Assembly: GCF_003334765.1 (NCBI RefSeq)
Contig: NZ_QOWT01000003.1
Source of the DNA: Escherichia coli
Lineage (GTDB): Bacteria; Pseudomonadota; Gammaproteobacteria; Enterobacterales; Enterobacteriaceae
DNA length: 64,000 nt
Reading direction: 5' to 3' (one strand)
How positions within the stretch are numbered: position 1 is the stretch's first letter; the number at the start of each line of letters is the position of its first letter. Below the pieces are notes generated by a model. That model did not search any database. It was given only the letters and a program-made list of their open reading frames with translations, and had not been told where the DNA came from. Shown here one piece after another: positions 21,440 through 57,036 of this stretch. The translations under genes and the position numbers were made by a program.

Positions 21440-21850
21440 GTCACTGAAAATAAACAGGATCTTACACCATGTTATCCACAGAAAGCTGGGATAACTGTGA
21501 AAAACCTCCACTACTGTTTCCATTTACAGCCTTGACGTGCGACGAAACTCCAGTTTTTAGTGGTTCAGTGCTTAACTTAGTGGCACATTCTGTGGATAAA
21601 TACGGCATTGGTTGATCTTTCGCCAACCCGTAAATGAGAGGTGTGACCTGGGTCACGAATTACTCTTTTTCATTACTAAAATTACATGTAATGCATTGAC
21701 TGATAATGAATATTTTAAAATGTCTATATCGGGCTTATTCAGAATGCTCCGGGTTTTCCCGTAGTAATTCCGTAGTTCTTCACAACTCTATCCACAGAAA
21801 AGGTGAATAAAAACGGCTATCCACCCCTTCCTCTGTTTATAACTCTGCAC
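21440..21850. promoter_or_regulatory. DARS2-like DnaA-reactivating sequence (cluster of DnaA boxes between mutH and rppH)
   Basis: DnaA-box matches at 21472-21480 (TTATCCACA), 21591-21599 (TGTGGATAA, reverse), 21788-21796 (CTATCCACA) and 21817-21825 (CTATCCACC) inside a 684-bp intergenic region; DARS2 is reported between mutH and ygdP(=rppH). Boundaries approximate. Confidence 0.5.
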
Positions 21851-50625: not shown

Positions 50626-51357
50626 TCAGGCTGTTACCAAAGAAGTTGCAACCTGGCGCTCATCAGAAATAATGTGCGTTACCTCATCCAGATGCCCGAT
50701 GCGGGCTTCCCCTGAACGATTAAATTTACTTTTATCAATCAATAACAACGATTGCGCGGCACGTTTTAATAGCATCGATTTGTAATCAGCGTTGATCGCA
50801 TTGGAGTCCCACAGTGCGCCGCTGCTATCGATCCCTTCACAAGAAAAAATAAACAGATCGATTTCCAGCGATTTAAGTTGGGAAATCAGCGAGGGATTGA
50901 CGTAACAGCCATATTTGCGCTCAAGTGTGCCGCCGGAACTGATCAGTTGAATGCGTTCGCGTTTACCGAGTTCATGGCAAATCGGATGGCTATTGGTGAA
51001 GACCTGAATGTTGATGTCAGGCAACTGGCGTGCCAGATACCAGCAAGTTGAACTGGCGTCTAAGGCTATCACCATCCCTTCTTCAATCCACGCGAGCGCC
51101 TCGCGCGCGATATCTGCTTTATGCGCATAATGGCTTTTCAGCCTGATGTGAAAGGGATCGCCACTGTCTTGATTTTGACGGTGGATATATTTAGCGCGTC
51201 CATGATTGCGCAGAATTTTACCCTGCGTCTGTAATTCATTGAGATCGCGACGAATGGTTTCTTTACTGACCTTTAGCTGTTCAGAGAGAGCTTCCGTGGT
51301 CAGGCTGGTATGGTTCAGCAGCAGGTCGACTATCGCTTGCTGGCGTGCCGCTTTCAT
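50626..51357 (-). CDS. fucR: L-fucose operon activator FucR (DeoR family)
   Basis: 243 aa from ATG 51357; DeoR-type HTH near the N-terminus. Confidence 0.93.
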   Translation of the reverse strand: MKAARQQAIVDLLLNHTSLTTEALSEQLKVSKETIRRDLNELQTQGKILRNHGRAKYIHRQNQDSGDPFHIRLKSHYAHKADIAREALAWIEEGMVIALDASSTCWYLARQLPDINIQVFTNSHPICHELGKRERIQLISSGGTLERKYGCYVNPSLISQLKSLEIDLFIFSCEGIDSSGALWDSNAINADYKSMLLKRAAQSLLLIDKSKFNRSGEARIGHLDEVTHIISDERQVATSLVTA

Positions 51358-55173: not shown

Positions 55174-56490
55174 TCAGTTAGTTGCCGTTTGAGAACGGAA
55201 ACGGGCAAAGATAAAGATGACCGCGAAGCAGAGTGCGGGGATCAGTTCAGCAGTGGGGATGTTGCCCGCCGCGTCACTGACAAAACCCATGACCGGAGTG
55301 ACAATACCGCCGCCAATAATGGTCATAACGATGAAGGACGAACCATATTTGGTGTCCTGGCCGAGATTCTTAATGCCCAGCGAGAAGATTGTTGGGTACT
55401 GAATCGACATAAAGGCGCTGCATAAAGTCAGGGCTATTAAGCCCACATGACCGCCAGCGAAGGCTGAGATCAGGCACAGTGCCATAGCGATTAATGCGTA
55501 GGCGGCCAGGACTTTGTGTGGTGCGAAGCGACTGATGAGCCAGGTACCGGTGAAACGACCAATAAAGAAGCACACCATGGTTCCGGTTAAATAGTTAGCG
55601 GCAAAGCCTGCAGTCATACCTGGAATTTCTTCTACAGCGTAGCGAATCAAATAGCTCCAGCAGGCCGTTTGTGCGCCGACATAGCAGAATTGCGCTAATA
55701 CCGCCCAGCGCCAGTGGCGAATACGCGCCAGGCGAGAAAGCGATGCGGAGAACGATCCTTGTTTGGCGTCACTGTGATTATCACTCTGCAATGCCGGGAA
55801 TTTCGTCAGCATGATCAGCAGGGCGACCAGTAACACGATAGCCACGATGATCATATAAGGTGTCTGTACCGATAATACCAGGCTGTGTTTATACGCACTC
55901 AATTGCTCTGGAGACATTTTATCGAGAACGTCTTGCGATTGATGTGGCACGTTAGACAAAATAAGACTTTGCCCAAAGACAACCGCGATAATTGCGCCAA
56001 ACGAGTTAAATGTTTGCGCAAGATTTAAGCGGAAGTGACCACTACTTTCCGGCCCTAATACCGTAACAAAAGGGTTTGCGGCAGTTTCCAGACAACCTAA
56101 TCCGGCTGCAATAATAAATAGGCCAACTAAAAATAAGGTGTAGTTCATTATTTCTGCGGCGGGCCAGAATAATGCAGCACCCAAGGCATATAAAAATAAC
56201 CCGGTAATAATCCCTGCTTTATAACTGAGTTTTTTCATCAATATCCCAGCAGGGATTGGGATAATGAAATAACCAAAGTAAAAGGCCGATTGGATCAGGC
56301 CAGCCTGGAAATTTGTCAGCGTAAAAGCCTGCTGGAATTGAGGTAATAAAATGTCGTTAAGGTTATTGGCTACCGCCCAAAGAAAAAACAGTGAGCACAG
56401 CAGCGCGAATGGAATAATGTAACTTCTGCTTTGCCCTGCATCTTTATCTACCGCACGGTAACTCTGCGTTTGTATTGATGTGTTTCCCAT
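55174..56490 (-). CDS. fucP: L-fucose:H+ symporter FucP (MFS)
   Basis: 438 aa polytopic membrane protein. Confidence 0.94.
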   Translation of the reverse strand: MGNTSIQTQSYRAVDKDAGQSRSYIIPFALLCSLFFLWAVANNLNDILLPQFQQAFTLTNFQAGLIQSAFYFGYFIIPIPAGILMKKLSYKAGIITGLFLYALGAALFWPAAEIMNYTLFLVGLFIIAAGLGCLETAANPFVTVLGPESSGHFRLNLAQTFNSFGAIIAVVFGQSLILSNVPHQSQDVLDKMSPEQLSAYKHSLVLSVQTPYMIIVAIVLLVALLIMLTKFPALQSDNHSDAKQGSFSASLSRLARIRHWRWAVLAQFCYVGAQTACWSYLIRYAVEEIPGMTAGFAANYLTGTMVCFFIGRFTGTWLISRFAPHKVLAAYALIAMALCLISAFAGGHVGLIALTLCSAFMSIQYPTIFSLGIKNLGQDTKYGSSFIVMTIIGGGIVTPVMGFVSDAAGNIPTAELIPALCFAVIFIFARFRSQTATN

Positions 56491-56678
56491 AGCATCCTCT
56501 TAGGTTCAGAAGCTTAAGCACGTAATCGGTTATGTTTTCAAAAGTGCAAAACCAGCGAGTTCGGGCTTCATATCAGTGAATATTTGCCTGTCTGAAATGA
56601 ACTCATGGATTCATTTTCAAATAAAAAACGCTCTGTAATATGACGGCGGTCACACTTATTAGCTAGAAGGTGACTTTA

Positions 56679-56846
56679 TGTGACTACCATCACTTTAATA
56701 ATCGAAATTTCATGCCCGTTTCAGAAAATAAATCATAAAAAACACAAATCAGATGACCGTATTAATTGTTTGTGCCGAAAACGGTCATTCCGGGCTTGGA
56801 GGAATAGAAAAATGACCGTTTTGATAAATATTTTTAAGAGCGGTCA
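56679..56846. promoter_or_regulatory. fucPIKUR / fucAO divergent control region: CRP-like site plus four TGACCG(T) half-sites
   Basis: TGTGA-N6-TCACT at 56679-56694; TGACCGT at 56754-56760 and 56813-56819, each paired with an inverted ACGGTCA / GCGGTCA 20 bp downstream (56781-56787, 56840-56846). Confidence 0.45.
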
Positions 56847-57036
56847 TTTTTAATGGGGTTATAAAAAGAGAACTTGCAGTTATTTACTGTGATTAGTTGA
56901 ACCAGGTCACAAAATATAAGCTTGTGAATTTCTTTCTTGTTAATCAGGAAGAAGATGGTGGGTAATTAAACGGCTAATTCAATAGTGTGAAAGGAACAAC
57001 ATTATTGCCCTGTTTTGAATCAGAGAGAGGTAGCTA

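What the first reader, a model, noticed from the sequence alone, without database searches (positions are those of the whole stretch)
56491..57036. Repeated TGACCG(T) half-sites and a CRP-like site in the fuc divergent control region
The 546-bp region between fucP and fucA contains TGTGA-N6-TCACT (56679-56694), a near-consensus CRP site. It also has four copies of a 7-bp motif arranged as two inverted pairs with identical 20-bp spacers (TGACCGT 56754 / ACGGTCA 56781; TGACCGT 56813 / GCGGTCA 56840), the pairs ~59 bp apart. This regular architecture is what I would expect for FucR (DeoR family) operator sites.
Basis: partly seen in the sequence, partly recalled or inferred. Interest (0 to 1): 0.45.

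Follow-up and report, generated by a model that had tools for sequence, protein, structure and literature searches.

The report
FucR and CRP sites, fuc control region
The repeated TGACCG/CGGTCA motifs and the TGTGA-N6-TCACT site between fucP and fucA of E. coli are real, strongly conserved binding sites for the fucose activator FucR and for CRP; they are already largely described in the literature, so the finding is correct but ordinary.

Summary
The window is the E. coli fucPIKUR/fucAO divergent control region.

**Already published.** Two of the four motif copies are the FucR sites OFucR2 (56775-89) and OFucR3 (56834-48). Zhang et al. 2024 showed by mutagenesis that both are needed for fucose induction of PfucAO. 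The CRP-like site fits the known OCrp1 of the fucPIK promoter.

**What I add from 46 orthologous fucP-fucA regions of Enterobacterales.**
- TGMCCG-N22-CGGKCA occurs 78 times, in 45 of 47 regions (window included). N23 occurs 11 times. Every other spacer from 10 to 35 gives 0-2, and shuffles give 0.045.
- The half-site extends to AAATGMCCGTTTT.
- The untested left arms are as conserved as the validated right arms.
- A fifth conserved half-site (TGCCCGTTTC, 56713-22) lies 41-42 bp left of pair 1 and 18 bp from the CRP site.
- The CRP arms are kept in 46 of 46 orthologues while the 6-bp spacer varies.

**Caveat.** Published 5' truncations show the left arms are dispensable for PfucAO. They therefore probably serve the divergent fucPIK promoter; this is inferred, not shown.

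**Verdict.** It is essentially already known. The fixed 28-bp arm spacing and the fifth site are modest refinements.

The parts
50626..51357 (-). fucR, the DeoR-family L-fucose operon activator (243 aa from MKAARQ...)
   Evidence: ORF. It matches NCBIfam NF007720 (equivalog, 'L-fucose operon activator') at 508 bits against a cut-off of 259.
55174..56490 (-). fucP, first gene of fucPIKUR, transcribed leftwards
   Evidence: ORF; RefSeq annotation.
56636..56657 (.). OCrp0, CRP site taaTaTGAcggcggTCACActt (centre 56646.5). It holds a fifth exact CGGTCA at 56647-52 that is not a FucR element.
   Evidence: The sequence is given in PMC11894529. The arms are conserved, but the central CGGCGG is not (conservation 0.0-0.5). 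It has 1 mismatch to the CRP core.
56663..56666 (.). CTAG target of the IS5 insertions that activate fucAO and silence fucPIK. It separates OCrp0 from everything to its right.
   Evidence: PMC11894529 gives -374 to -371 from the fucA start. These coordinates match the window sequence.
56679..56694 (.). It is very probably the published OCrp1 of the fucPIK promoter.
   Evidence: It matches 9 of 10 core positions. TGTGA-N6-TCAC(T/C) is kept in 46 of 46 orthologous regions with a variable spacer. It is 40 bp from the centre of OCrp0. It lies between the IS5 target and the -339 truncation point.
56713..56722 (+). It is in the same orientation as the two left arms.
   Evidence: Column conservation is 0.9 or more at 9 of 10 positions. 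It lies 41 bp (28 regions) or 42 bp (9 regions) left of pair 1, and a constant 18 bp from TCACT of the CRP site.
56738..56746 (+). Conserved non-canonical element AAAAACACA (AAAA-CCACA in most genera), 28 bp from the fifth half-site, where a right arm would be expected
   Evidence: moderate conservation. In Photorhabdus a canonical CGGTCA occupies this position. Its function is unknown.
56754..56760 (+). Left arm of pair 1, TGACCGT
   Evidence: conservation 9,9,6,9,9,9 in tenths. It has not been tested experimentally. It is absent from truncation V5 (starts at 56767), which keeps full PfucAO activity.
56775..56789 (+). Right arm of pair 1 = published OFucR2, CCGAAAACGGTCATT (core ACGGTCA 56781-87)
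   Evidence: PMC11011485: the site was proposed from the in-vitro FucR binding assay, and mutating it causes about 30% loss of induced PfucAO activity. It is conserved.
56813..56819 (+). Left arm of pair 2, TGACCGT
   Evidence: It is absent from truncation V6 (starts at 56831), which keeps about 70% activity, the same as the OFucR2 point mutant.
56834..56848 (+). Right arm of pair 2 = published OFucR3, TTAAGAGCGGTCATT (core GCGGTCA 56840-46)
   Evidence: PMC11011485: mutating it lowers fucose-induced PfucAO activity more than 50-fold. It is conserved. It lies 56-57 bp from the TGA of OCrp2 in 37 of 42 regions.
56893..56914 (.). OCrp2, CRP site ttagtTGAaccaggTCACAaaa (centre 56903.5), at -70.5 from the reported fucA start site
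   Evidence: PMC11011485: mutating it abolishes PfucAO activity. The arms are conserved.
56974..56974 (+). Transcription start site of PfucAO (a C, 63 nt upstream of the fucA ATG)
   Evidence: 5'RACE in PMC11011485. The base at this position in the window is C.
56983..57004 (.). OCrp3, weak CRP site tagTGTGAaaggaacaACAtta in the fucA leader
   Evidence: PMC11011485: mutating it causes a 30% effect. It is poorly conserved.
57037..57684 (+). fucA, first gene of fucAO, transcribed rightwards

Best explanation
The four 7-mers are the cores of roughly 13-bp recognition elements (AAATGMCCGTTTT) for FucR, the fuculose-1-phosphate-dependent activator of the DeoR family. Each element is probably read by one winged-helix domain.

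The elements form 34-bp convergent units, TGMCCG-N22-CGGKCA, with arm centres 28 bp apart and A+T-rich spacers of variable sequence. There are two full units at 56754-87 and 56813-46. A third unit at 56713-46 has a canonical left arm and a conserved but divergent right arm.

The array lies upstream of both divergent promoters, between their CRP sites. On the fucA side it is OCrp2.

Shown by others:
- The two arms that point towards fucA (OFucR2 and especially OFucR3) are needed for fucose induction of PfucAO, together with CRP at OCrp2.
- The arms that point towards fucP are not needed for PfucAO.

Inferred here:
- The leftward-pointing arms and the fifth half-site are equally conserved. They present the same sequence, AAAACGG(T/G)CAT, towards fucP, so they are the FucR elements of PfucPIKUR, working with CRP at the two fucP-side sites.
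- The nearly invariant arm spacing means the two arms of a unit are held by one FucR oligomer. One protein array would then serve both promoters.
For: 1. Identity. OFucR2 and OFucR3 coincide with the two right arms, and their mutation gives fucose-specific loss of PfucAO activity. All four arms match the quoted in-vitro FucR motif. fucR is present and is the NCBIfam equivalog.

2. Conservation independent of the motif search. A MAFFT profile of 43 non-Escherichia orthologues shows identity of 0.9 or more at the core positions of all four arms and of the fifth half-site. The exception is the known variable third base. The sequence between units scores 0.0-0.3.

3. Architecture.
- TGMCCG-N22-CGGKCA with up to 1 mismatch: 78 sites in 45 of 47 regions.
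- N23: 11 sites. Every other spacer from 10 to 35: 0-2 sites. Shuffles: mean 0.045.
- Density is 87 per 25.4 kb inside the intergenic regions against 11 per 278 kb outside.
- The central part of the spacers is only 46-51% identical between species, yet its length is fixed.
- The distance between units varies more (52-59 bp, 40, 66-81).

4. Flanks that were not selected by the search are conserved, AAA on one side of the core and TTTT on the other.

5. The fifth half-site keeps fixed distances to pair 1 (41-42 bp) and to the CRP site (18 bp).

6. The CRP arms are kept in 46 of 46 regions with a free spacer.

7. An IS5 insertion between OCrp0 and the rest of the region silences fucPIK, as expected if the upstream CRP and FucR elements are required.
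Against: - Truncation V5 (from 56767, no left arm of pair 1) keeps full induced PfucAO activity.
- Truncation V6 (from 56831, only the right arm of pair 2 left) keeps about 70%. One arm alone can therefore work, so a pair is not an obligate operator for that promoter.
- No binding or mutational data on the left arms or the fifth site were available to me. The 2025 paper only names 'putative' operators OR0 and OR1 for PfucPIKR, without sequence.
- The distances from the array to the CRP sites are also nearly fixed. The region as a whole is rigid, so a fixed spacing within a pair is not unique evidence for one oligomer per pair.
- The species sampled are related, so the counts are not independent events.
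- FucR stoichiometry on DNA is unknown, and no solved homologue was found by sequence.
Confidence: 0.75

Rival explanations
1. Each half-site is an independent FucR site. The alternating orientation only reflects that some sites serve fucA and others fucP. The fixed 28-bp distance is a by-product of a generally rigid control region, not of one protein complex spanning both arms.
For: A single arm (OFucR3) supports about 70% of PfucAO induction. The in-vitro motif, as quoted, is a single 15-mer. Other distances in the region are also nearly fixed: 18 bp, 41-42 bp and 56-57 bp.
Against: The within-pair spacing is the most constrained distance (78 at N22, 11 at N23, essentially none otherwise). 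The distance between pairs ranges from 40 to 81 bp. In distant genera (Yersinia, Photorhabdus, Edwardsiella) the units move relative to each other and to fucA but keep N22.
Confidence: 0.2
2. Each inverted pair is an obligate palindromic operator for a symmetric FucR dimer, and both arms are required for any function.
For: Inverted symmetry extends to 12 nt in pair 2 (AAAAATGACCGT / GCGGTCATTTTT). The spacing is invariant and both arms are equally conserved.
Against: Published truncations that delete the left arms do not abolish PfucAO induction: V5 is 100% and V6 about 70%. V6 is no worse than the OFucR2 point mutant.
Confidence: 0.1
3. The inverted repeats act as a nucleic-acid structure (a cruciform or an RNA hairpin), or are sites for a different regulator, not for FucR.
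For: As single-stranded DNA, pair 2 folds at -10 kcal/mol with z = -6.5.
Against: - The loops would be about 20 nt.
- Pair 1 folds weakly (z = -1.9) and unit 0 not at all.
- The variable third bases of the two arms do not covary: 43 complementary against 28 non-complementary, Fisher p = 0.15.
- The region lies upstream of both reported start sites.
- There is no Rfam match and no terminator-like site.
- The in-vitro FucR motif and the fucose-specific mutant phenotypes point to FucR.
Confidence: 0.02

Closest known systems
Published FucR sites OFucR2/OFucR3 (OR2/OR3) and CRP sites OCrp0-3 of the E. coli fucPIK/fucAO intergenic region (Zhang et al. 2024, PMC11011485; Zhang et al. 2025, PMC11894529)
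   Same: This is the same locus and the same sequences. OFucR2 is the right arm of pair 1 and OFucR3 is the right arm of pair 2. The FucR-plus-CRP co-activation model is theirs.
   Different: - Those papers treat the sites as single 15-mers. They do not mention inverted repeats, dimers or tetramers (0 occurrences).
- They give no sequence for the 'putative' OR0 and OR1.
- The left arms, the fixed 28-bp arm spacing, the fifth half-site at 56713-22 and the cross-genus conservation are not described in the text available to me.
Operator arrays of other DeoR-family regulators (E. coli DeoR, GlpR, AgaR, UlaR); comparison from my own knowledge, not tested here
   Same: The regulator has an N-terminal winged helix and a C-terminal sugar-phosphate-binding oligomerisation domain (family relation). 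It reads several repeated short elements spread over about 100 bp or more, often in divergent control regions that also hold CRP sites.
   Different: - Those regulators are repressors released by their sugar phosphate. FucR is an activator that needs its sugar phosphate.
- Their operators overlap promoters, whereas the FucR array lies about 110 to 240 bp upstream of the start sites.
- I know of no described parallel for convergent arms with 28-bp centre-to-centre spacing.
Divergent malEp-malKp control region (MalT boxes plus CRP sites); comparison from my own knowledge, as a functional analogue only
   Same: One intergenic array of asymmetric activator boxes in both orientations is interleaved with several CRP sites and activates two divergent, intrinsically weak promoters. 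No sigma-70 consensus match was found here either.
   Different: The activator family is unrelated (MalT is a STAND/LuxR-type protein) and the motif and spacing are different. A shared higher-order complex has not been shown for fuc.

Membership tests
FucR (DeoR-family) binding site | The cognate regulator gene is present in the same regulon | tested here: met
   fucR lies at 50626-51357 (-), downstream of fucPIKU. It matches NCBIfam NF007720 (equivalog) at 508 bits.
FucR (DeoR-family) binding site | The sequence fits the in-vitro FucR binding motif ...AAA(A/T)CGG(T/G)CAT(T) | tested here: met
   The motif is quoted in PMC11011485. Read towards CGGTCA, the four arms are TAATACGGTCATC, GAAAACGGTCATT, CAAAACGGTCATT and AAGAGCGGTCATT. 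The cross-species consensus is AAAACGGKCATTT. I could not read the original DAP-seq paper.
FucR (DeoR-family) binding site | Mutating the site removes FucR- and fucose-dependent activation | tested here: inconclusive
   From the literature this is met for the two right arms: about 30% loss for OFucR2 and more than 50-fold for OFucR3. The left arms and the fifth half-site have not been mutated. Truncations show the left arms are not needed for PfucAO. PfucPIK has not been tested.
FucR (DeoR-family) binding site | Direct occupancy by purified FucR at these coordinates (footprint or EMSA) | not testable with these tools
   I have only second-hand mention of a high-throughput in-vitro assay that proposed OFucR2.
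   Units with N22 or N23 spacers occur in all 47 regions analysed. Density is about 86 times higher inside the intergenic regions than in flanking DNA.
CRP (cAMP receptor protein) site | Match to TGTGA-N6-TCACA | tested here: met
   9 of 10 core positions match at 56679-94. It ties with OCrp0 as the best match in the intergenic region.
CRP (cAMP receptor protein) site | Both arms conserved and the 6-bp spacer free to vary in orthologues | tested here: met
   46 of 46 regions keep TGTGA-N6-TCAC(T/C). The spacer columns score 0.0-0.7.
CRP (cAMP receptor protein) site | Position compatible with activation, and experimental proof of function | tested here: inconclusive
   It is 40 bp upstream of OCrp0. 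If OCrp0 is at about -41 from the fucP start, this site is at about -81; that is my inference. The literature says OCrp1 lies right of the IS5 target and is required for fucPIK. The papers that print its sequence (Podolny 1999, Zhang 2010) are not held.
Palindromic operator bound as one unit by a symmetric oligomer | Fixed spacing between the arms | tested here: met
   N22 is found 78 times, N23 11 times and all other spacers 0-2 times.
Palindromic operator bound as one unit by a symmetric oligomer | Both arms required for function | tested here: not met
   For PfucAO, the published truncations V5 and V6 lack the left arms and keep 100% and about 70% activity. This has not been tested for PfucPIK.

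The most novel reading that the evidence does not exclude
FucR does not act through isolated 15-bp sites. It assembles on three 34-bp units (56713-46, 56754-87, 56813-46) whose arms are held 28 bp apart, forming one nucleoprotein array shared by two divergent CRP-dependent promoters. Each promoter would use only the arms that point towards it. The fifth half-site next to the CRP site at 56679-94 would be the critical FucR element of PfucPIKUR, mirroring OFucR3 for PfucAO. The conserved non-canonical arm (AAAA-CCACA) would be a deliberately weak or differently read position.
Probability: 0.45. Interest if true: 0.4.

Novelty: already known. Interest (0 to 1): 0.25.

Why it matters
The fuc regulon is a classic model for activator-plus-CRP control and for activation of a silent operon by IS5. 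Knowing the full set of FucR elements matters for interpreting those experiments.

The published work characterised only the fucAO side. It left the fucPIKUR-side FucR operators 'putative'. The conservation analysis here points to three specific untested elements (56713-22, 56754-60, 56813-19) as those operators. It also points to a fixed 28-bp arm geometry that any structural model of FucR, a rare activator in the DeoR family, must explain.

This is a useful refinement for specialists. It is not a new kind of system.

Tried and rejected
- **Fifth exact CGGTCA (56647-52) as a FucR site: rejected.** It lies in the spacer and right arm of CRP site OCrp0. Its CGG is not conserved in other genera, while the CRP arms are.
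- **Chance: rejected** by the window shuffles and the cross-species spacing test. The single hexamer is over-represented in the whole window, so it is not informative alone. The degenerate paired pattern is also not significant within this one window (2 found, 0.56 expected, 16 of 100 shuffles reach 2). Its support comes from the orthologues.
- **Hairpin, cruciform or RNA element: rejected**.
- **The conserved AAAA-CCACA element as half of a CRP site: rejected.** There is no TGTGA-like partner 6 bp upstream (read).
- **Dead ends.**
  - The papers that would give the OCrp1 sequence and the original FucR motif are not held (Podolny 1999, Zhang 2010, Baumgart 2021).
  - A literal search for the CRP site sequence found nothing.
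  - A sequence search of the PDB with FucR gave no hit at E = 0.001 or below, so no structural template was available for the arm spacing.
  - The consensus promoter scan found nothing in the region.
- **Not attempted.** I did not predict the FucR structure, because a monomer model would not settle the arm-spacing question. I did not check for fucR in the other genomes, because the flanks fetched were too short.

Full report
**Observation.** The window region 56491-57036 is the 546-bp spacer between fucP (55174-56490, minus strand) and fucA (57037-57684, plus strand) of Escherichia coli. The 901-bp query is found in 5042 of 5426 complete E. coli genomes and is annotated there as fucP and fucA.
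- TGTGACTACCATCACT at 56679-94
- TGACCGT at 56754-60
- ACGGTCA at 56781-87
- TGACCGT at 56813-19
- GCGGTCA at 56840-46

Both spacers are 20 bp between the 7-mers, and the pair starts are 59 bp apart. The lone hexamer TGACCG is frequent throughout the window (57 found against 30 expected), so it means little alone. The paired pattern TGACCG-N22-CGGTCA occurs only at these two places in 64 kb (0.15 expected, 0 of 100 shuffles reach 2). TGTGA-N6-TCAC occurs three times against 0.38 expected.

**What the literature already says.** Zhang et al. 2024 (PMC11011485) worked on exactly this region.
- Starting from the FucR motif of a high-throughput in-vitro binding assay (Baumgart et al. 2021), they named OFucR2 (CCGAAAACGGTCATT, window 56775-89) and OFucR3 (TTAAGAGCGGTCATT, window 56834-48).
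- Mutating OFucR2 lowered fucose-induced PfucAO activity by about 30%. Mutating OFucR3 lowered it more than 50-fold. Neither mutation had an effect without fucose.
- They mapped the fucA start site 63 nt upstream of the ATG (window 56974).
- They validated CRP sites OCrp2 (56893-914, essential) and OCrp3 (56983-57004, minor).

Zhang et al. 2025 (PMC11894529) give OCrp0 as taaTaTGAcggcggTCACActt (56636-57). They place the IS5 target CTAG (56663-66) between OCrp0 and OCrp1. [quoted passage not shown] Neither paper mentions inverted repeats, dimers or tetramers. The papers that would show OCrp1 letter by letter are not held.

**Phylogenetic footprint.** A FucA query retrieved 80 loci from one genome per species. 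Of these, 46 have the divergent fucP-fucA arrangement. They span Escherichia, Salmonella, Citrobacter, Klebsiella, Raoultella, Enterobacter, Kluyvera, Kosakonia, Hafnia, Yersinia, Photorhabdus, Rahnella and others.
- Allowing the variable third base, TGMCCG-N22-CGGKCA with at most one mismatch occurs 78 times in 45 of the 47 regions (window included).
- N23 occurs 11 times. Every other spacer length from 10 to 35 gives 0-2. Shuffled regions give a mean of 0.045.
- All 47 regions have at least one unit, and most have two.
- Density is 87 per 25.4 kb inside the intergenic regions against 11 per 278 kb in the flanking DNA. Those 11 are coding-sequence coincidences with G+C-rich spacers.
- Most of the 34 FucA-homologue loci without a divergent fucP lack the units. 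Edwardsiella keeps the whole architecture, and one Serratia locus has a single unit directly upstream of the aldolase gene. The few other matches lie elsewhere in the loci and carry a mismatch.

**A motif-independent check.** A MAFFT alignment scored against the E. coli sequence over 43 non-Escherichia regions gives a clean footprint.
- Identity is 0.9 or more at the core positions of all four arms, apart from the known variable third base.
- Identity is 0.0-0.3 in the stretch between the two units.
- The untested left arms are as conserved as the validated right arms.
- Flanks that were not part of the search pattern are also conserved, giving a half-site of about 13 bp, AAATGMCCGTTTT. This is the reverse complement of the quoted in-vitro motif. 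The core columns are circular by construction. The flanks and the profile are not.

1. A fifth half-site, TGCCCGTTTC at 56713-22, is as conserved as the others. It lies 41 bp (28 regions) or 42 bp (9 regions) to the left of pair 1, and a constant 18 bp from the TCACT of the CRP site.
2. At the position where its partner arm should be, 28 bp away, there is a conserved but different element: AAAA-CCACA in most genera and AAAAACACA in E. coli (56738-46). In Photorhabdus a canonical CGGTCA is found there. The region therefore looks like three 34-bp units, the leftmost with a non-canonical arm.
3. The exact CGGTCA at 56647-52 belongs to OCrp0. Its CGG is not conserved.
4. The distance between units is the most variable one. 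It is 52-59 bp with a mode of 56, which gives a regular 28-bp lattice of alternating arms in many genera. E. coli has 59, Photorhabdus 40 and Yersinia 66-81. The spacing within a unit hardly changes.

**How it probably works.**

Shown by others:
- FucR with its inducer and CRP co-activate PfucAO.
- The promoter-proximal right arm (OFucR3) and OCrp2 are essential.

From the reported start site I calculate that OCrp2 is centred at -70.5. The four arms are at about -130, -158, -189 and -217. The array is therefore far upstream and cannot touch RNA polymerase directly without CRP or DNA bending.

- V5 starts at 56767, lacks the left arm of pair 1 and is fully active.
- V6 starts at 56831, retains only the right arm of pair 2 and keeps about 70%. 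This is the same as the OFucR2 point mutant.

PfucAO therefore uses only the arms that point towards fucA. An inverted pair is not an obligate operator for it.

Inferred here:
- The left arms and the fifth half-site are under equally strong constraint. Read on the minus strand, they present the same AAAACGG(T/G)CAT towards fucP. They are therefore the best candidates for the FucR operators of PfucPIKUR, acting with CRP at 56679-94 and at OCrp0.
- This fits the silencing of fucPIK by IS5 inserted between OCrp0 and everything to its right.
- The nearly invariant arm spacing, despite 46-51% spacer identity, suggests that the two arms of a unit are held by one FucR oligomer. One array would then serve both promoters.
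- This last point is weakened because other distances in the region are also nearly fixed (18, 41-42 and 56-57 bp).

**Rivals.**
- A nucleic-acid structure is unlikely. Only pair 2 folds well as single-stranded DNA, and it would have a 20-nt loop. The variable bases of the two arms do not covary (43 against 28, p = 0.15). The region is upstream of both reported start sites. There is no Rfam or terminator hit.
- Another regulator is unlikely, given the FucR in-vitro motif and the fucose-specific phenotypes.
- Independent single sites without physical coupling remain possible (about 0.2).

**Comparison and verdict.** fucR is in the window and is the NCBIfam equivalog of the L-fucose operon activator. 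It shows clear family relations to GlpR, AgaR, SrlR, UlaR and DeoR. Three things appear not to be in the accessible literature: the 34-bp convergent unit with fixed arm spacing, its conservation across Enterobacterales, and the fifth half-site with its odd partner. These are modest refinements that make the fucPIKUR side of the regulon directly testable. Interest is low to moderate.

**Limits.**
- The species are related, so the counts overstate the number of independent events.
- I had no access to figures or to three key papers.
- Positions relative to the fucP start site are inferred, not read from data.

Noticed in passing
window 56492-56500: Several natural E. coli isolates (strains 2-331, E272, EC25, c1-17) carry an IS1 element inserted immediately upstream of the fucP start codon. 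The 9-bp target duplication is GCATCCTCT. The insertion separates fucP from its promoter and leader. Its effect on fucose use or on fucAO expression is unknown.
   Followed up: partly
window 56738-56746; same position in loci L004-L030: A conserved non-canonical element (AAAA-CCACA in most genera, AAAAACACA in E. coli) lies exactly where the partner arm of the fifth FucR half-site would be. Photorhabdus has a canonical CGGTCA there. Nothing explains why this one arm is kept in a different form.
   Followed up: partly
loci L031-L067 (34 of the 80 FucA-homologue loci): Many Citrobacter, Buttiauxella, Atlantibacter, Enterobacter and other genomes hold a FucA homologue (82-88% identical) with no divergent fucP. 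Most of these loci lack the FucR units. This looks like a second aldolase copy in another gene context. Edwardsiella (L042, L047, L052) keeps the full FucR and CRP architecture next to a permease that is only 45-48% identical to FucP.
   Followed up: partly
window 56922-56946: Zhang et al. 2024 quote the PfucAO -35 element as TTGtgA at -96 to -91 from the fucA start. In the window those positions (56941-46) read TAATCA. TTGTGA is at 56922-27 (-115 to -110), which is too far from the quoted -10 (56964-69). The -35 assignment in that paper should be used with care.
   Followed up: no
window 5265-5279 and 21642-21656: There are two further exact TGTGA-N6-TCAC matches elsewhere in the window: TGTGATAAAAATCAC and TGTGACCTGGGTCAC. 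They are possible CRP sites. I did not examine their context.
   Followed up: no
whole window: The hexamer TGACCG/CGGTCA is about twice as frequent as expected from dinucleotide-preserving shuffles (57 against 30). Most copies lie in coding sequence, so this is probably a codon-usage effect.
   Followed up: no
window 56611-56628: The block TCATTTTCAAATAAAAAA is conserved (about 0.7-0.9). It lies about 20-35 bp from the centre of OCrp0 on the fucP side, where the -10 region of PfucPIK should be if OCrp0 is a class II site. No sigma-70 consensus match was found by the scan.
   Followed up: no
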